Part shown: positions 7,431 through 14,475 of the stretch, in pieces
Position numbering within the stretch: position 1 is the first letter of the stretch
Layout of the letters: every line of letters starts with the position of its first letter
NCBI GenBank assembly: GCA_958296135.2
Contig: CATQHZ020000001.1
Coordinates: forward strand, 3,808,001-3,872,000
Direction: 5' to 3'
Source of the DNA: an uncultured Poribacteria bacterium
GTDB lineage: Bacteria; Poribacteria; WGA-4E; WGA-3G
DNA: 64,000 nt
Made by a program: the position numbers and the translations under genes
Notes under the pieces: generated by a model
The model's database searches: none
What the model saw: the letters and a program-made list of their open reading frames with translations, nothing else
Told to the model about the DNA's origin: nothing

Positions 7431-8861
7431 GTATCTGCCCTAATCTAGCAGTGTGCATTTTTATTTGCAGTCGCCGTGGATTTGTGGTAGAATGTAGTTA
7501 CCGTTGGGGGCGAGACGGCTAGGTGCGGCTGCCCGCCGTGTCTCTCGCCCCACCTATCTAGCAGAAGGTGACAACCAACGGGAACGGTGACGCTATGGCA
7601 CTACGAGCCCAGAAGATAGCACTCAATCCAACTGAGGAACAGGTCGAGGCATTTAACCTGCATGTGCAATTCGCACGCGCCGCCTATAATGCCGCGCATT
7701 CTGATTGGAACGCCGACCGCCGTAACTCCCTCTATGATTTGAAGAAAATCTTCAACTCACGGAAGCGCGAGGTGTTCCCCGAATTCGCCGCGTGTTCTCA
7801 AAACGCAGGCAAGACTGCTATCCACGCTTTCGGTGATGCTATCGCCAGATACAAATCGGGACAGAATGGTGCGCCCAAACGGAAGACGCATAAGTCTCGC
7901 CCCGCGTTCCAGATTGATAATGGTGTGGATAGCGTCAAAATAACGGAGGACGGCAAACACGTCGTCCTCCCGATAATTGGACAGGTTAGGTTGCATGAAA
8001 CCCCTCGATGGACAGGTGAAGTTCGCCGTGCTTTCGTCAAACGCATCGCACATCGTTGGTATCTCAGCATCCTCGTCGACGTTAACGAACCGGAACCGCC
8101 TGATAGTTCCAACCTGCCCGCCGCAGGTTGTGATGTCGGCATCTCTGCCCTCGCCACGATGGACGATGGCACTGTCTATGAAAATCCGCGTGCCTTGCGC
8201 GTCAATGAACGCAAACTACGCCGTGCAAATAAGGCACTCGCCCGCAAGACGTTCATGAGCCGCAACTGGTGGAAGGCGAAGGAACGCCTCGCCCGCCTGC
8301 ATGCCCGTATCGCCAATGTGCGAACCGATGCCCATCATCAGGCGACACATCGCATCCTGCAAGGCATCTCGGCACTTGGCATCGAGAGCCTCACCGTCAA
8401 AGGTTTGATGAAAAATCGCAAGCTGAGCAAGGCACTCGCCGATGCAAGTCTTGGCGGCTTCCTCGTCAAACTCAAATATAAGGCGGTGTGGCGTGGCATC
8501 CGCATTGTGTCAGCAGATAAGTTCTGGCCGTCAACACAGCGATGCAGTTCTTGTGGATACGTCAAACGTGGCGAATTCAAACTGACGCTCAAGGACAGAG
8601 AATATCACTGCGGCATCTGCGGATGGGTAGAGGACAGAGACGTTAACGCCGCTATAAACCTTCGACAGCTCGCCTCAAGCACTGAGGAGAGTCAAAACGC
8701 CTGTGGAGATGCTGTAACACCTACTTTGGTAGGCTGGCATCAGAACCCGCGTGTGCGCGGAAGAAGCAGGAAACCGCTGACCGAACAGAGACTCGTAGAC
8801 TTTGCACAGGTTTCCAGATAAGTCTACATTTGACGAGATGCTCATAGGTTATGTAGTGCGG
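7431..8861 (+). mobile_element. Non-autonomous IS607-type element (tnpB only)
   Basis: Shares a left motif (TGCATTTTTATTTGCAGT..17 nt..TAGAAT) and a right end (CAGATA..ACATTT..GAGATG..TAGGTT..AGTGCGG) with the second element at 37137-38916. The left boundary is approximate. Confidence 0.65.
7595..8821 (+). CDS. tnpB: RNA-guided endonuclease TnpB
   Basis: N-terminal AQKIALNPT, RuvC motifs GCDVGI / IESL / DRDVNAAINL, and a CSSCG...CGICG zinc ribbon. Catalytic residues appear intact. Confidence 0.92.
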   Translation: MALRAQKIALNPTEEQVEAFNLHVQFARAAYNAAHSDWNADRRNSLYDLKKIFNSRKREVFPEFAACSQNAGKTAIHAFGDAIARYKSGQNGAPKRKTHKSRPAFQIDNGVDSVKITEDGKHVVLPIIGQVRLHETPRWTGEVRRAFVKRIAHRWYLSILVDVNEPEPPDSSNLPAAGCDVGISALATMDDGTVYENPRALRVNERKLRRANKALARKTFMSRNWWKAKERLARLHARIANVRTDAHHQATHRILQGISALGIESLTVKGLMKNRKLSKALADASLGGFLVKLKYKAVWRGIRIVSADKFWPSTQRCSSCGYVKRGEFKLTLKDREYHCGICGWVEDRDVNAAINLRQLASSTEESQNACGDAVTPTLVGWHQNPRVRGRSRKPLTEQRLVDFAQVSR

Positions 8862-9174: not shown

Positions 9175-9936
9175 ATGGCAGCTCAAACATCCAAAATCGA
9201 GTGGACAGAATCAACTTGGAACCCCGTCCGCGGATGCACGCGGGTCTCAGAAGGGTGCCGGTTCTGTTATGCTGAACGGATCGCGTCGCGATTTTCTGAC
9301 GAAGGCATGGCATACGAGGGCCTCGCCGAAAACACCAAAGCCGGTCCGCGCTGGACACAGGAAGTCAGGATTGTCCGAGAAGCGTTCAAGGCACCCCTGA
9401 AATGGAGAAAACCGCGCCGAATTTTCGTCAATTCCATGAGCGACATCTTCCATGAAAAGATCGAATTATCGACGATTCAGGAGCTCTTCGATGTCATGAA
9501 GAAAGCGGATTGGCACCAATTCCAGCTCTTGACGAAGCGAGCAGAACGGCTATTGGCATGCAACGCCGCCTTGCCGTGGCCGCCGAACGTCTGGATGGGA
9601 GTGAGCGTGGAAGATGAGCAAGTTATGCATCGGATAGATGCGCTGCGGCAAACCGATGCGCGCATCAAATTCCTCTCACTTGAACCGCTCCTCGGTCCGC
9701 TTCCGAATTTAGACTTAAGCGGGATAGACTGGGTTATCGTCGGCGGAGAATCCGGTCCGGGTGCACGTCCGATGGATAAAGCATGGGTGATTGCCATCCG
9801 AGAGCGGTGTGCGGAGGCGGGTGTGCCGTTTTTCTTTAAGCAGTGGGGTGGCGTGCGTAAATCGAAAACGGGGCGCGAGTTGGATGGAAAATTTTATGAC
9901 GAGATGCCGCACACGCCGCTATTGCAAATGAGATAG
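9175..9936 (+). CDS. DUF5131 (phage Gp37/Gp68-like, three-Cys motif) protein
   Basis: IEWT..TWNPVRGC.RVSEGCRFCYAE, FVNSMSDIFH, FLSLEPLLG, DWVIVGGESG and FFFKQWGG motifs. Confidence 0.92.
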   Translation: MAAQTSKIEWTESTWNPVRGCTRVSEGCRFCYAERIASRFSDEGMAYEGLAENTKAGPRWTQEVRIVREAFKAPLKWRKPRRIFVNSMSDIFHEKIELSTIQELFDVMKKADWHQFQLLTKRAERLLACNAALPWPPNVWMGVSVEDEQVMHRIDALRQTDARIKFLSLEPLLGPLPNLDLSGIDWVIVGGESGPGARPMDKAWVIAIRERCAEAGVPFFFKQWGGVRKSKTGRELDGKFYDEMPHTPLLQMR

Positions 9937-9956: not shown

Positions 9957-11579
9957 TCATGGAATCGCCCGTATCTGGCGGATTTCGGAAACCTCAGACA
10001 CCGGCGGCGAGATCGGTTCATGGAATGCCATCTTCGCGGCAATTCTCCCGTAACTGTAACCATCACGGCGGGCTAACAATCGTAAATCCGCAGTGGTGCC
10101 GCTTTTTCGCGAATCTTTCACATCCGGTGCGAAATATTTGACACGGCATCTACGCGGCTTCCCTTTGGGCGTTTTATCAAAGCAGTTAATAACCCCGCGC
10201 CATTTCGTCCCATCTTGCGTTGTGAGCTCAACATGGTCCAACCGCCGGAACCCGTTGCTTTCCGCCCGTTTTTCATTCGGGAGGAAGAAGCCCGGGGCCT
10301 TCATCTTGAAAGTCTTGCGCAGATTATCACGCCGTCCATATCCCTCCGCTTGAATCACGTCAACTTGGAGAGAACTTGGTTGTTTCGGGAGACACGCAAC
10401 CGCGGCCGCGTCGTAGTAATGCGTCTTTGGCAAGCCTGCGAGGTTTCGGTTATGTGCTGTTTTTCCGCCAGTCCCGCTGAGAACGGGCAACTTCATCGCC
10501 TTGAGTATTTCAAAGAGTTTCCAGCGAATCGTGTTCACTGCAGCAGCATCAGAAAGCCCTTTCTTTGACTTGCTCACAGCGGATTTGACCTTTTTCGCAA
10601 ACTTTTCACCGCATTTCGCTTCCAACGCGTCACCGACAAGATTGCCCTTTTTCGCGTTGCACGGACGACACGCCATCGTGAGATTGTCGGGGCGACTGGA
10701 ACCGCCTTTCGCTTTAGGGAGGATGTGTTCAACCTCAAGGCGAACATTTTTGTCCCCACAATAGGCGCACTTTCGTCCGGTGAGTTCCAAGAGGTATTCG
10801 CGAATTTCGCGCCCGTGAAGTGTGCCTTGTTGATATTGAATCCCATGAATGTTGGGCTTGTCCATCAACTGCATATCAAACTTCACCGTTTCAATCGCGA
10901 GCCGTGTTATCGGAGAGACTTTGCGGTATCGCCGCGTCCACGTCTCTATATTGAAAACACGGGACATGAGGCTCGGTGCAACCCATCCGTTATCCGCGCG
11001 CTTTTGATGAGCAACACGGACGCGCTTCCAACGCTTCTTTTGGCGTTGATTCGTTTTCGTTTTCGGCAGACGTTCCCACCGATACCGCGGATCTCGCAAT
11101 TGTGCCCACGAGACGCGATTGAAGTGATTCTGCGTTTGACTCGTATCCGTGCCTTCTGGGGCCTTGGCGCGTTGATACGTCCATCCCTCGTCAGTCAGCA
11201 CCGGCACTTTTCGTCCGCGGTTTGCCCAACGCGCAGGACGATACCGTAGATTCCGAGTGCGGCGACCGCGGCGGAATCCAGACCGGTTAGTCAACGCTTT
11301 CTTTATCTGCCTTCCACGATGGTGGAGTTCCGCGGCATAGATGATATCGCCAGTCTCCGATGTGATGGCGATGCCCGATGTTTTTGAACCCGGATCCCAA
11401 CTCAGGGTGTAGTTCCCGGTAACAATCTCATCGGCAGGCACCGCTTTTTTCAGGATGATTGTAAACGGATGTCGGTTCCAAACAGCCGCCTCACCACGCT
11501 TCAATAAACGTCGCGCTATTGCCGGGTGGCACGGTTCCAATACGTTCTTGTTTCTATCAATCACAAAAACTTTTGACAT
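9957..11579 (-). CDS. iscB: IscB RNA-guided endonuclease (540 aa), CRISPR-associated, with a REC-position insertion
   Basis: PLMP-like N-terminus (VFVID...VLEPCHPAIARRLLK...PFTIIL), RuvC-I WDPGSK, Arg-rich bridge helix (RRGRRTRNLRYRPAR), GWVAPSL, RuvC-II IETVKFD, HNH (CAYC...EHILPKAKGGS...NL..AC..CN..K) and RuvC-III THYYDA. GGAGAGG ribosome-binding site precedes the ATG at 11579. Confidence 0.95.
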   Translation of the reverse strand: MSKVFVIDRNKNVLEPCHPAIARRLLKRGEAAVWNRHPFTIILKKAVPADEIVTGNYTLSWDPGSKTSGIAITSETGDIIYAAELHHRGRQIKKALTNRSGFRRGRRTRNLRYRPARWANRGRKVPVLTDEGWTYQRAKAPEGTDTSQTQNHFNRVSWAQLRDPRYRWERLPKTKTNQRQKKRWKRVRVAHQKRADNGWVAPSLMSRVFNIETWTRRYRKVSPITRLAIETVKFDMQLMDKPNIHGIQYQQGTLHGREIREYLLELTGRKCAYCGDKNVRLEVEHILPKAKGGSSRPDNLTMACRPCNAKKGNLVGDALEAKCGEKFAKKVKSAVSKSKKGLSDAAAVNTIRWKLFEILKAMKLPVLSGTGGKTAHNRNLAGLPKTHYYDAAAVACLPKQPSSLQVDVIQAEGYGRRDNLRKTFKMKAPGFFLPNEKRAESNGFRRLDHVELTTQDGTKWRGVINCFDKTPKGKPRRCRVKYFAPDVKDSRKSGTTADLRLLARRDGYSYGRIAAKMAFHEPISPPVSEVSEIRQIRAIP

Positions 11580-11589
11580 AATGTCCTCT

Positions 11590-11860
11590 CCTGCTACTGC
11601 AGAAGGTAATGTGAGCCTCGCCAATGTTATCTCTGCTTAATTCAGGGTTGACTGCCTCATCTTGACAAGAGACTGTTTACAGAGCCCCCACAGTGCTCCC
11701 GACTGGCTCCATCGGCGATCCGACGTATCTGGAGGTGTGATAACAGAGATAACGTAGTTAGTGAAAACTTAAGCTAGATACCGATTCAATTAGGCAACAA
11801 GGATTCCACCCCTTGTTCCCCGCTCCGCAAGCGGAGCTAACATGGTTTCATTGCAACTTT
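11590..11860 (-). ncRNA. omegaRNA (HEARO-like) scaffold with a 5' anti-repeat (tracrRNA-like)
   Basis: Minus-strand motifs in HEARO order: ACTACGTT...ACACC...CCAGT...CTCTG TAAACAG...CAGT...AACATTGGCGAGG...TTACC. A perfect 10-bp long-range stem joins 11744-11753 and 11626-11635. Directly upstream of iscB. Confidence 0.85.
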
Positions 11861-11950: not shown

Positions 11951-13260
11951 GTTGCAACTTTACCATGCTCAAGCGGTAACTGAAGGATTTAAGCCGACTC
12001 CGCGCAGCCGGAAACGCGTTGCAACTTTACCATGCTCAAGCGGTAACGGTTCCATCTCGATGCGAGTTTGCGTCGTGCGGCACTGGTTGCAACTTTACCA
12101 TGCTCAAGCGGTAACGCTGCGCTTTGCGGTTTAGCTCTCCCCACGCGATTGTTGCAACTTTACCATGCTCAAGCGGTAACTCGTAAGGATAGGCGAGTGC
12201 CTTGTCAATGAGGCGTTCGTTGCAACTTTACCATGCTCAAGCGGTAACTTTACCTAAACTATAATGCGTAAAATTGACAATCTCTAGTTGCAACTTTACC
12301 ATGCTCAAGCGGTAACGCGTGTCGTAAGATTCTGCCGCCGCGTAGATGGAATGCGTTGCAACTTTACCATGCTCAAGCGGTAACCTTCATCGTAAGCCTC
12401 TTCATCGTAGGTGAAGAATTGTTGCAACTTTACCATGCTCAAGCGGTAACCGCTTGATGAACCTGCTGTTGATGAACCCCAGCAGGGCAGGGCGGCGTTG
12501 CAACTTTACCATGCTCAAGCGGTAACCAGCATCTTGAAAAACAAGGTGCGGGTGCTGCGAGCGTTGCAACTTTACCATGCTCAAGCGGTAACAGGTTTTT
12601 ACGTCTACTTGCGCCGGCCCGCCAGCCGGCGCGGTTGCAACTTTACCATGCTCAAGCGGTAACTGAACACGAAGGGCGGGGTGACGCGCATGGGCGTGAG
12701 TTGCAACTTTACCATGCTCAAGCGGTAACCTCTGTATAACCTATGTTAATCCCGTCAAATCTAGTTGCAACTTTACCATGCTCAAGCGGTAACCTAAAAT
12801 ATCCATTACATCTTTAGGCATTGCCAGCCTCGTTGCAACTTTACCATGCTCAAGCGGTAACTTAAGGTCTTCGTGAAGCCCTCCCTGCCCGTCCAGGTTG
12901 CAACTTTACCATGCTCAAGCGGTAACCATTGCAGACGAGCATTGATGTGAAGACCGGACGACTGTTGCAACTTTACCATGCTCAAGCGGTAACGTCATAG
13001 ATGGCTTCTAGCATAGGCGTGAGACGCGGTGTTGCAACTTTACCATGCTCAAGCGGTAACGCGCAGCGTCAGTCTCGGTAGCCGGTGCGGGTGCCGGTGT
13101 TGCAACTTTACCATGCTCAAGCGGTAACTTTTGGGGTTGATTTGCGCTCATGGCGTTGCCGACAGGTTGCAACTTTACCATGCACAAGCGGTAACAAATA
13201 CTGACAGCGATACGACTTCCCGCCAGAACCGTTTCAACTTTACCATGCTCAGGTGGTAAC
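11951..13260 (-). CRISPR. CRISPR array: 20 repeats of 30 nt (transcribed GTTACCGCTTGAGCATGGTAAAGTTGCAAC) and 19 unique spacers of 34-46 nt
   Basis: Repeats start at 11951, 12018, 12086, 12151, 12219, 12287, 12355, 12421, 12497, 12563, 12634, 12700, 12764, 12832, 12897, 12964, 13031, 13099, 13166 (1 mismatch) and 13231 (3 mismatches). Confidence 0.98.
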
Positions 13261-13378: not shown

Positions 13379-14302
13379 TCATACAAGTTTGTTCAAATCG
13401 ACAGGTAACCCGACAGATTTCATTTCCTGAGCCAGTCTCAGTTTCCATCCATCCTCGCTCTTCATTGGAATATAAAGGAGTCCATCAAGATCGGAGGGGT
13501 TTTCTAGTTCCCCTTTAACGAGCAAACAGACTCTTCCGCGTTCCAACTTTCCTTGAAAATAGCCGAGTTCTAGGATGACGTTTTGACGAGCCCGAAGTTT
13601 GAGATCCTCATCTGCTTCATTCCTTAGGGCACCAACATCATCGGGAGTCAGCAAAGCAATAGCAAACCTAACGTTGTTTGCCAATTGCTCAAGCTTCTCA
13701 ATAATCGTTAGACCGGAGTTGGGTTGGTTTTCAAGGATGATTTCCTTGAATCCTAAATCCCTGAGGAACAAAACGACAGCGTTTTTCGCCGCATCGTCCC
13801 GTCCATGCACGATAAACACTGAAGTGTCCGCAGGAGTGTCTGAAGGTAGATTACGCAGATTTATCTTTCCCACCGTTTCAGATCTGGCTTCCACCGTAGA
13901 ACCTTCTTGTGCTATCTGTAACCGTGTTAACTGTTCCGGATCCAAAACCGATATTTCGCCATCATCAACAGAATCCACCTCTTTTGCCTTCGGGTGATAG
14001 GAGAGGTAGGAACGTTCCCCTTTTCTTTCTTCGATGATAGCGAGCCATATACCGCCGCAACTCCCTTCGCAGCACAGCGTTTTTTGTCTGTCGCAGAGTT
14101 TGATTTCAAGTTGATGCGAAGCCCCCCAGGGACAAGCAATGTCAATAAATTCGTGAGGTTGTGCCGGCGTGGAAAGAAGGACTTTCCATGCACCACCTCG
14201 TTGCAAGATACCATGCACCTTCTTACCTGTCGTATCTACGATAAGAAGGTCTTTCCCATCAAATGCCCCTGAAGGAAGCATTCCATTATAAGGTCTATAC
14301 AT
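13379..14302 (-). CDS. TIR-like domain (predicted nucleotide-binding, CBASS/Pycsar-effector-like) protein with an unknown N-terminal domain
   Basis: VFIVHGRD...TIIEKLE...FAIALLTPDD...RARQNVILELGYF...PSDLDG motifs. GGAG ribosome-binding site before the ATG at 14302. Confidence 0.85.
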   Translation of the reverse strand: MYRPYNGMLPSGAFDGKDLLIVDTTGKKVHGILQRGGAWKVLLSTPAQPHEFIDIACPWGASHQLEIKLCDRQKTLCCEGSCGGIWLAIIEERKGERSYLSYHPKAKEVDSVDDGEISVLDPEQLTRLQIAQEGSTVEARSETVGKINLRNLPSDTPADTSVFIVHGRDDAAKNAVVLFLRDLGFKEIILENQPNSGLTIIEKLEQLANNVRFAIALLTPDDVGALRNEADEDLKLRARQNVILELGYFQGKLERGRVCLLVKGELENPSDLDGLLYIPMKSEDGWKLRLAQEMKSVGLPVDLNKLV

Positions 14303-14475
14303 TATTTCTCCTTCCACCCGCAGTTCCAGAAAACCCGCACCAGCATCGTTACATTTCAAGGGAAACCGTTAAGTTCTCTCATACCATCGGTGCATGAGCG
14401 CAGCGTTACCATAACCCGACACCGCAATGGCGATGCGAAGCCGGTAACTGAACGTACCTGCATCCTTTTCTTTTA

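What the first reader, a model, noticed from the sequence alone, without database searches (positions are those of the whole stretch)
11001..11216. About 70-aa basic, Trp-rich insertion at the REC position of IscB
Seen: between the bridge helix end (RYRPARWANR) and GWVAPSL lies GRKVPVLTDEGWTYQR...RWERLPKTKTNQRQKKRWKRVRVAHQK. Known: canonical IscBs have only a few residues here (RF.NR...GWLPPS), and Cas9 gained its REC lobe at this site. Inference: this is a proto-REC module that may read a longer guide:target duplex or bind the repeat:anti-repeat helix, which would fit the 34-46 nt spacers.
Basis: partly seen in the sequence, partly recalled or inferred. Interest (0 to 1): 0.7.

Follow-up and report, generated by a model that had tools for sequence, protein, structure and literature searches.

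The report
REC-site insert in CRISPR-linked IscB
A small RNA-guided nuclease (IscB) of a sponge-symbiont bacterium, already wired to a CRISPR array, carries a conserved, very basic 76-residue module at the spot where Cas9 grew its target-reading lobe; it is a new variant of a known kind of insert.

Summary
The IscB gene is window 9957-11579 (minus strand, 540 aa). It has 76 residues (122-197, nt 10989-11216) between ARWANR (the FNNR motif) and GWVAPSL (the LTP motif). Thirty of 48 relatives from genomes have 4 residues there.

- **Composition:** pI 11.4, 20 Lys+Arg, 4 Trp, no Cys.
- **Conservation:** 69% mean pairwise identity against 74% for the core.
- **Predicted fold:** two beta-hairpins plus a short helix, pLDDT about 80-87 in the second half. 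No match in PDB, Pfam or BFVD.
- **Locus:** a full-length HEARO/omega RNA with an anti-repeat, then a 20-repeat array.

All 9 assessable loci with inserts of 76 aa or more have an array. So do the 3 loci with 30-37-aa inserts and one of five with a 22-aa insert, so the module is not needed for array use. Spacers are 35-39 nt whatever the insert size, and they match a cas1-linked array in the same genome. The spacer-length argument therefore fails.

REC-like inserts at this site and CRISPR-associated IscBs are both published. Two things go beyond what I found in print. The module has no zinc finger, so it is unlike the Cas9-lineage insert. It also comes in nested sizes (22 to 149 aa) that look exchanged as cassettes between closely related IscBs.

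The parts
9957..11579 (-). iscB coding sequence, 540 aa, stop codon included
   Evidence: ORF list. Pfam RRXRR 1.5e-55 and HNH. Best PDB sequence matches are IscBs. The AF2 model aligns to IsrB/IscB structures at Z 20-24 from residue 1-2, and to Cas9s only from residue about 54.
11217..11234 (-). ARWANR (residues 116-121), the FNNR motif at the end of the bridge helix
   Evidence: Aligned to RFNNR of TbaIscB. Conserved in the 120 homologues. Motif named in Kannan 2025.
11169..11216 (-). Insert part 1: beta-hairpin 1 (residues 122-137, GRKVPVLTDEGWTYQR). W133 and Y135 are invariant.
   Evidence: Strands 124-128/133-137 and 3-8/11-16 of the insert alone. Shared with the 22-aa forms. Invariant columns listed.
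11130..11168 (-). Insert part 2: acidic, poorly conserved loop (residues 138-150)
   Evidence: pLDDT below 50 for residues 140-147. Mean pairwise identity 0.57.
11070..11129 (-). Insert part 3: NxFNRVSxAxLxDxRYRWER (residues 151-170), a short helix and strand beta-3
   Evidence: pLDDT 79-89. N151, V156, D163, R165 and Y166 are invariant; W168 and R170 are at least 90% conserved.
11031..11069 (-). Insert part 4: variable tip of hairpin 2 (residues 171-183, LPKTKTNQRQKKR). Larger relatives carry nested additions here.
   Evidence: Alignment A2. The tip is about 3 aa in the 67-aa form and about 70 aa in the 132-133-aa forms.
10989..11030 (-). Insert part 5: strand beta-4 and basic tail (residues 184-197, WKRVRVAHQKRADN)
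   Evidence: Strand 184-188. W184, R186, R188, H191 and N197 are at least 90% conserved.
10968..10988 (-). GWVAPSL (residues 198-204), the LTP motif at the start of RuvC-II
   Evidence: W199, P202 and S203 are invariant in 120 homologues. Motif named in Kannan 2025.
11606..11841 (-). HEARO / omega-RNA scaffold, full-length match
   Evidence: Rfam RF02033, 83.4 bits (gathering score 83), model positions 1-211 of 211.
11841..11857 (-). Anti-repeat at the 5' edge of the omega RNA, where a canonical omega RNA has its guide
   Evidence: Complementary to the 3' 17 nt of the repeat, 14 of 17 pairs by eye. Paired with the last repeat in the MFE and centroid folds, z -4.3.
11951..13260 (-). CRISPR array: 20 repeats of 30 nt and 19 spacers of 34-46 nt (17 of them 35-38)
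   Evidence: The repeat occurs nowhere else in the genome.

Best explanation
The segment is an enlarged REC linker: a REC-like, nucleic-acid-binding module of a CRISPR-associated IscB.

**Shown**
- It sits at the FNNR/LTP junction.
- It is conserved and very basic.
- It is predicted to form two beta-hairpins with conserved Trp/Tyr, and the tip of the second hairpin is a hot spot for nested additions.
- The enzyme keeps its PLMP region, its HNH and RuvC domains and a full omega RNA whose 5' end is an anti-repeat for the adjacent array.

**Inferred**
- In the ribonucleoprotein the two hairpins project from the bridge-helix end along the guide:target heteroduplex, on the side where Cas9 has its REC lobe.
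- Lys/Arg contact the backbone and the conserved aromatics stack on or cap the TAM-distal part of the duplex (TAM = target-adjacent motif).
- This would stabilise a longer R-loop and help gate HNH activation.

The module adds to the omega RNA rather than replacing part of it. It is an optional, exchangeable accessory, not a prerequisite for using CRISPR spacers.
For: - **Position:** between ARWANR and GWVAPSL. [quoted passage not shown] - **Charge and aromatics:** pI 11.4, 26% K+R, 4 Trp.
- **Selection:** mean pairwise identity is 0.69 in the insert (0.72 for residues 151-197) against 0.74 in the core, over 40 sequences. dN/dS is 0.19 against 0.13 and 0.09 in the flanks, for the window versus L001. 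Eight columns are invariant and 19 are at least 90% conserved across 37 inserts.
- **Fold:** the same elements appear in the full-length model and in the insert-alone model, pLDDT 81-87 over insert residues 31-70.
- **Aromatic stacking precedent:** aromatic or His stacking residues of REC3 set heteroduplex checkpoints in Cas9d, PsCas9 and SpCas9 (PMC13622844, passages).
- **Context:** HEARO, anti-repeat and array. All 9 assessable loci with large inserts have arrays.
- **Omega RNA not shortened:** HEARO spans 222-296 nt in forms with 76-149-aa inserts, 184-245 nt in 22-aa forms and 207-249 nt in 4-aa forms.
Against: - No complex with RNA or DNA was modelled, so the contact partner is inferred from position alone.
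- The isolated module matches no solved or viral predicted fold, Cas9 REC domains included: Foldseek best E 6.7, VIA-align nothing at Z 2 or more, BFVD best E 1.8.
- Close relatives do without residues 138-197. These are the 22-aa forms, one of which has a homologous mini-array.
- Spacer length does not change with insert size.
- Residues 140-147 are predicted disordered, and pTM of the isolated module is only 0.45.
Confidence: 0.55

Rival explanations
1. The module binds the guide-RNA scaffold rather than the target heteroduplex. Its partner would be the repeat:anti-repeat helix or the diverged 5' adaptor of the omega RNA, and it would stabilise the two-RNA assembly.
For: It follows directly after the FNNR motif, which Kannan 2025 calls RNA-contacting. 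It is highly basic. Omega RNAs of the whole clade match HEARO weakly, at 44-83 bits against 104-142 bits for two 4-aa relatives, and have mispaired first stems. The anti-repeat sits where the guide normally is.
Against: Forms with 22-37-aa inserts have the same repeat family and the same low HEARO scores without the module. No RNA feature was found that tracks insert size.
Confidence: 0.2
2. The module is mainly an exposed, fast-swapping surface element under conflict or regulatory selection. Examples would be escape from phage inhibitors that dock at the REC site, or binding of a host partner. Any role in reading the guide would be incidental.
For: There is a mosaic pattern. P0022 (76 aa) and P0059 (132 aa) are 96% and 91% identical in the N and C cores but 45% identical in the insert. 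The divergent block is sharply bounded at about residues 106-195. P0057 and P0064 show the reverse: 68% and 60% in the cores against 77-82% in the insert. The size classes are interleaved on the core tree. The locus lies beside a CAP12/Pycsar-type TIR protein gene, a defence context.
Against: Within a size class the module is as conserved as the core, with invariant basic and aromatic residues. No inhibitor or partner is known.
Confidence: 0.12
3. The module is a tolerated, essentially neutral expansion segment of the REC linker.
For: 22-aa relatives exist. Residues 140-147 are predicted disordered. The tip is low-complexity in the 87-104-aa forms.
Against: dN/dS of 0.19, identity close to that of the core, invariant Trp/Tyr/Arg, and a confident predicted fold for residues 151-190.
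Confidence: 0.08

Closest known systems
REC-like inserts / enlarged REC linker of IscBs: CzcbIscB and TbaIscB zinc-finger inserts, type II-D Cas9 minimal REC (Kannan et al. 2025, PMC13180657; Hirano et al. 2022, PMC9581776)
   Same: Same insertion point, between the FNNR motif at the bridge-helix end and the LTP motif of RuvC-II. Same idea of a small domain beside the guide:target duplex.
   Different: There is no zinc finger. None of the 68 inserts of 67 aa or more has two Cys, whereas TbaIscB has a 34-aa stretch with a Cys at this site and relatives P0124 and P0176 have CxxC...CxxC inserts. It is beta-hairpin based, not helical. It has no sequence or fold match to solved IscB or Cas9 structures.
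Beta-hairpin REC linker of OgeuIscB/OrufIscB
   Same: A short basic beta-hairpin near the bridge helix, said to touch the guide:target duplex.
   Different: In OrufIscB the hairpin lies before the FNNR motif. Here both hairpins lie after it. In my PDB alignment OgeuIscB's extra residues also precede RFNNR.
CRISPR-associated IscB (DelIscB; Zhang et al. 2025, PMC12660989, citing Altae-Tran et al. 2021)
   Same: An IscB with an upstream non-coding RNA that holds repeats, spacers and an anti-repeat (here).
   Different: DelIscB is 457 aa, the size of the 22-aa-insert forms found here. The window protein has about 54 residues more at the REC site. I could not obtain the DelIscB sequence, so any relationship is untested.
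Cas9 REC lobe
   Same: Topological position. Association of the enzyme with a CRISPR array and a repeat:anti-repeat duplex.
   Different: The Cas9 REC lobe is far larger (Hirano 2022 gives 625 aa for SpCas9); from memory it is helical. [quoted passage not shown] Here the N-terminal region and a full-length HEARO are kept. No cas1 or cas2 is adjacent.

Membership tests
IscB (OMEGA RNA-guided nuclease) | Split RuvC with an Arg-rich bridge helix, plus an inserted HNH domain | tested here: met
   Pfam RRXRR 1.5e-55 and HNH 1.9e-12. IscB structures are the top matches by sequence and by fold, Z 20-24. D62, E230, H285, N308, H387 and D390 are conserved in 120 homologues; I assign these as catalytic from memory.
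IscB (OMEGA RNA-guided nuclease) | N-terminal PLMP domain (absent from Cas9) | tested here: met
   The RRXRR profile matches from residue 5. Structural alignments to IsrB/IscB start at model residue 1-2, and those to Cas9s at about 54.
IscB (OMEGA RNA-guided nuclease) | Omega RNA (HEARO) encoded directly upstream on the same strand | tested here: met
   RF02033 at 11606-11841 (minus), 83.4 bits against a gathering score of 83, full length.
IscB (OMEGA RNA-guided nuclease) | Residence in an IS200/IS605 element with a TnpA (Y1 transposase) | tested here: not met
   The nearest Y1_Tnp match in the genome is about 83 kb away. The four neighbouring ORFs I scanned are TnpB, DUF5131, a TIR-domain protein and one without a family. 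IscB is single-copy in this genome. TnpA-less IscBs are common (from memory), so this does not exclude membership of the protein family.
CRISPR-associated IscB | CRISPR array upstream of the omega RNA, with an anti-repeat in the RNA | tested here: met
   20 repeats at 11951-13260. The anti-repeat at 11841-11857 pairs with the last repeat in the fold.
REC-like insert / enlarged REC linker | Extra residues between the FNNR and LTP motifs | tested here: met
   76 aa here against 4 aa in 30 of 48 genome-derived relatives.
REC-like insert / enlarged REC linker | Contacts the guide:target heteroduplex | not testable with these tools
Cas9-lineage REC (zinc-finger core / helical bundle) | Conserved REC zinc finger or triple-helix bundle (Kannan 2025) | tested here: not met
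   0 Cys in the window insert. None of 68 large inserts has two Cys. The predicted fold is mostly beta-hairpins. Fold searches found no REC match, which on its own is inconclusive.
Cas9 (type II effector) | Adjacent cas1/cas2, large REC lobe, no PLMP domain | tested here: not met
   The cas1 genes lie about 170 kb and 575 kb away. The PLMP region is present. The insert is only 76 aa.

The most novel reading that the evidence does not exclude
A lineage of IscB in sponge-symbiont Poribacteria has become a CRISPR effector, apparently separately from the Cas9 lineage. At the exact site where Cas9 built its REC lobe it is growing an unrelated module with no zinc finger.

The module exists as a nested series of 22, 30-37, 67-76, 87-104 and 122-149 aa, with new subdomains budding from one hairpin tip. 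The versions look shuffled between loci by recombination, a natural counterpart of the laboratory 'REC swaps'. This would be a living replay of REC-lobe origin. It would also be a ready-made library of small REC modules that may tune R-loop length, fidelity or resistance to inhibitors.
Probability: 0.3. Interest if true: 0.75.

Novelty: new variant of a known kind. Interest (0 to 1): 0.55.

Why it matters
How Cas9 acquired its REC lobe, and the order in which CRISPR association, RNA shrinkage and REC gain happened, is inferred from few intermediates.

This clade gives a second series in which the order can be read. Array association appears first and does not need the module. The omega RNA stays full length. 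The REC-site module then grows and is exchanged.

For engineering, small natural REC-site modules are what improved OrufIscB in Kannan 2025. A family of compact (22-149 aa), zinc-free modules with defined graft points could be tested directly for their effect on guide length and specificity.

Tried and rejected
**Searches on the insert alone that found nothing**
- PDB sequence search, none at E up to 10.
- Pfam, none at E up to 10.
- Foldseek against PDB, best E 6.7.
- VIA-align against 48,161 chains, none at Z 2 or more.
- BFVD, best E 1.8.
- ESM Atlas, best score 0.79, which is chance level.

**Other searches with little or no yield**
- The metagenome-contig scan gave only 14 distant loci, none of the insert-bearing clade. 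It did not help the array test.
- The 'longer' homologue search gave two proteins of 954-1016 aa. The one I read (P0271) is a 4-aa IscB with a long C-terminal extension that looks like read-through, and both have 4-aa linkers. Neither resembles TbaIscB or Cas9. The position of the clade relative to the Cas9 lineage on a global tree was therefore not tested.
- Spacers: only chance-level matches elsewhere in the own genome. Two 24-nt spacer stretches had no exact match in viral contigs. No target or TAM is known.
- The look-up of sequencing runs: no RNA holder listed. Four runs of one sample hold the DNA. I did not lay reads.

**Ideas rejected**
- 'The insert replaces lost omega-RNA parts': rejected, because HEARO is full length in 14 of 15 relatives regardless of insert size.
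- 'Large-insert forms are one clade': rejected by an AU test, p 0.00013. The group was defined after I had seen the tree.

**Limits of my own scripts**
- My first motif pattern overshot for L013 (167 instead of 149 aa) and missed L006. Both were corrected.
- The pattern scan of the 150 representatives is unreliable beyond the 4-aa count and is not used for any claim.
- The tree left out P0051 and P0066 of the 120 rows, through the pattern and length filter.
- In one search, dS was saturated for all pairs except WIN-L001 and L002-L066. The 'pre' segment of L066 was misaligned and is ignored.

**Papers and closed sources**
- Altae-Tran et al. 2021 is not held. What I say of it is recalled or taken from the DelIscB paper.
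- Supplementary tables are closed. I could not check whether Kannan 2025's tested 'larger IscBs' include this family.
- 'Not in print' rests on one search, 'Poribacteria' + 'IscB', with 0 papers, and on the listings.
Full report
**What is there**

The finding's coordinates (11001-11216, minus strand) translate to the quoted 72 residues. They lie inside a 540-aa ORF, 9957-11579 (minus). That ORF is an IscB:
- Pfam RRXRR (1.5e-55, split into two stretches by the segment) and HNH.
- Best PDB sequence matches are TbaIscB, OgeuIscB and engineered IscBs.
- The AlphaFold model (mean pLDDT 82.8) aligns to IsrB/IscB structures at Z 20-24 from residue 1-2. It aligns to Cas9s only from residue about 54, so the IscB-specific N-terminal region is present.

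Measured between ARWANR (116-121) and GWVAPSL (198-204), the segment is 76 aa, residues 122-197, nt 10989-11216. It has pI 11.4, 20 K+R, 4 Trp and no Cys. Several early calls used a start one codon too far upstream. This changes nothing.

**The locus**

Directly upstream on the same strand lies a full-length HEARO/omega RNA (RF02033, 11606-11841, 83.4 bits). At its 5' edge, where a canonical omega RNA carries its guide, there is a 17-nt anti-repeat (11841-11857). It pairs with the 3' part of the nearest CRISPR repeat in the predicted fold (z -4.3).

Next comes an array of 20 repeats of 30 nt at 11951-13260, with 19 spacers of 34-46 nt, 17 of them 35-38 nt.

Other context:
- No cas1 is adjacent. 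Two cas1 genes lie about 170 and 575 kb away.
- No Y1 transposase is near.
- Neighbouring genes encode a TnpB, a DUF5131 protein and a CAP12/Pycsar-type TIR protein.
- By the record titles of its closest relatives, the genome is a Candidatus Poribacteria.

This is the CRISPR-associated IscB arrangement described for DelIscB (passages).

**Is the site the REC site?**

Kannan et al. 2025 (passages) state that REC and REC-like inserts of IscBs and type II-D Cas9s lie between a basic, RNA-contacting FNNR motif and a helical LTP motif of RuvC-II. Hirano et al. 2022 (passages) call this stretch the REC linker. They note that it is enlarged and minimally folded in some IscB clades, and that Cas9 replaced it with the REC lobe.

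ARWANR aligns with RFNNR of TbaIscB, and GWVAPSL with YWLPPSL.

Among genome-derived relatives, 30 of 48 have 4 residues at this site. OgeuIscB's extra residues precede the motif. TbaIscB has 34 residues at the site.

**Is it a real, selected module?**

The 120 nearest homologues (48-100% identical) fall into size classes at this site:

| Residues at the site | Homologues |
|---|---|
| 4 | 1 |
| 22-23 | 38 |
| 30 | 12 |
| 67-76 | 42 |
| 87-104 | 9 |
| 122-149 | 17 |
| N-terminally truncated | 1 |

The first 16 residues (RKVPVLTxxGWxYQ) are shared by all forms of 22 aa or more. Forms of 67 aa or more add a conserved NxFNRVSxAxLxDxRYxWxR ... KKRWxRxR block.

Across 37 inserts, 8 columns are invariant (R123, W133, Y135, N151, V156, D163, R165, Y166) and 19 more are at least 90% conserved. 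Among the 40 sequences with exactly 76 aa, mean pairwise identity is 0.69 in the insert against 0.74 in the core. For the window against L001, dN/dS is 0.19 in the insert against 0.13 and 0.09 in the flanks.

Two AlphaFold runs, one of the whole protein and one of the insert alone, agree on the elements:
- hairpin 1, residues 124-137, pLDDT about 62-70;
- a disordered acidic loop, residues 140-147;
- a short helix, residues 158-161;
- hairpin 2, strands 166-170 and 184-188, pLDDT about 80-89, with a 13-residue tip.

All larger variants carry their extra residues at that tip, and the 129-149-aa class also carries extra residues after the second strand. The 67-aa variant reduces the tip to about 3 residues.

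The isolated module has no detectable relative by sequence or fold. None of the 68 large inserts could form a zinc finger. This differs from the Cas9-lineage REC core and from the CxxC inserts of relatives P0124 and P0176.

**Co-occurrence with arrays**

In species-representative genomes the clade is confined to Poribacteria. Twenty-two of 176 genomes of the phylum have an IscB relative. I resolved 18 distinct loci of the clade.

| Insert size | Loci with an array directly upstream of the omega RNA | Notes |
|---|---|---|
| 76 aa or more | 9 of 9 assessable | A tenth locus sits at a contig end |
| 30-37 aa | 3 of 3 | |
| 22 aa | 1 of 5 | L012, four repeats |
| 4 aa | 0 of 30 genome-contig loci and 0 of 6 Poribacteria loci | One of the six had only 209 nt of upstream sequence |

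L011 (22 aa) has an unrelated 37-nt-repeat array just downstream of the gene.

The 30-nt repeat family (GTT..CGCT.G.GCATG.T...GTTGCAAC) occurs in all three subclades, beside inserts of 22, 30, 34, 76, 133 and 149 aa. On a core tree that excludes the insert, the 18 loci form one clade (100/100) nested among array-less 4-aa IscBs.

But array association is older and wider than the large insert, and these related loci give few independent contrasts.

**The spacer-length argument**

Spacers are about 35-39 nt beside every insert class. A 72-repeat, cas1-adjacent array in the same genome has the same repeat length (30 nt) and 34-39-nt spacers. The other cas1 array has 42-47-nt spacers. Spacer length thus looks like a property of adaptation in trans. 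It says nothing about the effective guide.

HEARO is full length in 14 of 15 relatives and is not shorter where the insert is larger. So the module adds to the RNA rather than replacing it.

**An unexpected pattern: cassette-like exchange**

On the core tree the size classes are interleaved. An AU test rejects monophyly of the forms of 76 aa or more (p 0.00013; the group was chosen after I had seen the tree).

| Pair | N core identity | C core identity | Insert identity |
|---|---|---|---|
| P0022 (76 aa) / P0059 (132 aa) | 96% | 91% | 45% |
| P0057 / P0064 (both about 132 aa) | 68% | 60% | 77-82% |

For the first pair the identity dip is sharply bounded at about residues 106-195.

L013 (149 aa, from a single-contig chromosome) groups with the 22-aa forms by its core, yet its insert is homologous to the window's.

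The simplest reading is recombinational exchange of the REC-site module between related IscB loci. One genome has a 76-aa locus and a 34-aa locus 20 kb apart on the same contig.

**Mechanism**

By position, charge, conserved aromatics and published analogy, the module most likely lies on nucleic acid in the RNP. I favour the TAM-distal guide:target duplex (confidence 0.55). There, stacking residues of small REC domains set R-loop checkpoints in Cas9d and other Cas9s (passages).

Binding of the guide scaffold, a conflict-driven surface role, and neutrality are the rivals. None is excluded, because no RNA/DNA complex could be modelled here.

**Verdict**

REC-like inserts at this site and CRISPR-associated IscBs are both published, so this is a new variant of a known kind.

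I found four points that are not in print, within the limits of my searches (supplements closed):
- the zinc-free, two-hairpin architecture;
- the nested size series;
- the apparent cassette exchange;
- the order of events: array first, omega RNA retained, module later.

Noticed in passing
window 13379-14359 (-): A 326-aa protein with a CAP12/Pycsar-effector TIR domain (4.3e-37) ends about 120 nt from the far end of the IscB array. This suggests a defence-island setting.
   Followed up: partly
window 7568-8821 (+): A TnpB (OrfB_IS605 + Cas12f1-like TNB, 417 aa) lies about 1.1 kb beyond the 3' end of iscB, so a second OMEGA-type nuclease sits in the same neighbourhood. A DUF5131 gene (9175-9936) lies between them.
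   Followed up: partly
window 13166-13260: The two repeats farthest from iscB are the degenerate ones (1 and 3 mismatches). If the array is co-transcribed with iscB, the degenerate end is promoter-proximal, the reverse of the usual leader/trailer polarity. Two spacers are outliers, at 41 and 46 nt.
   Followed up: no
own genome C1:4396604-4401369 and C1:3642830-3645591: Two large cas1-adjacent CRISPR arrays (72 and 38 repeats). The first has the same 30-nt repeat length and 34-39-nt spacers as the IscB array, so it is a candidate source of adaptation in trans.
   Followed up: partly
L011:11466-12236 and L009:8735-9288: Two sister IscB loci (22-aa and 37-aa inserts) sit right beside arrays with unrelated 37-nt repeats. 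L009 also has a degenerate mini-array next to its omega RNA. This hints that IscB elements land beside, or capture, arrays of other CRISPR types.
   Followed up: partly
L001 and L014 (same contig PYJE01000137.1): One Poribacteria genome carries two array-linked IscB loci about 20 kb apart, with 76-aa and 34-aa inserts. This gives an opportunity for exchange between paralogues.
   Followed up: no
proteins P0124, P0176, P0194, P0141: Other IscB relatives have unrelated inserts at the same site: 34-36 aa with CxxC...CxxC (like a zinc finger), a 74-aa insert with no similarity to the window's, and a 50-aa hairpin-plus-extension. The site is a general insertion hot spot.
   Followed up: partly
protein P0132 (574 aa, 38% identical overall): A much more distant IscB carries a 93-aa insert with the same core signature (YSRV...DKRFKWRKL...RWKRT). 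Either the module is older than the Poribacteria clade sampled here or it has moved between lineages. Its placement on the tree is unreliable because of a long branch.
   Followed up: partly
L066 (G152:C2:391541-393103): The search reported one in-frame TGA within the match to this 76-aa-insert IscB. It may be a sequencing error, a recent inactivation or recoding.
   Followed up: no
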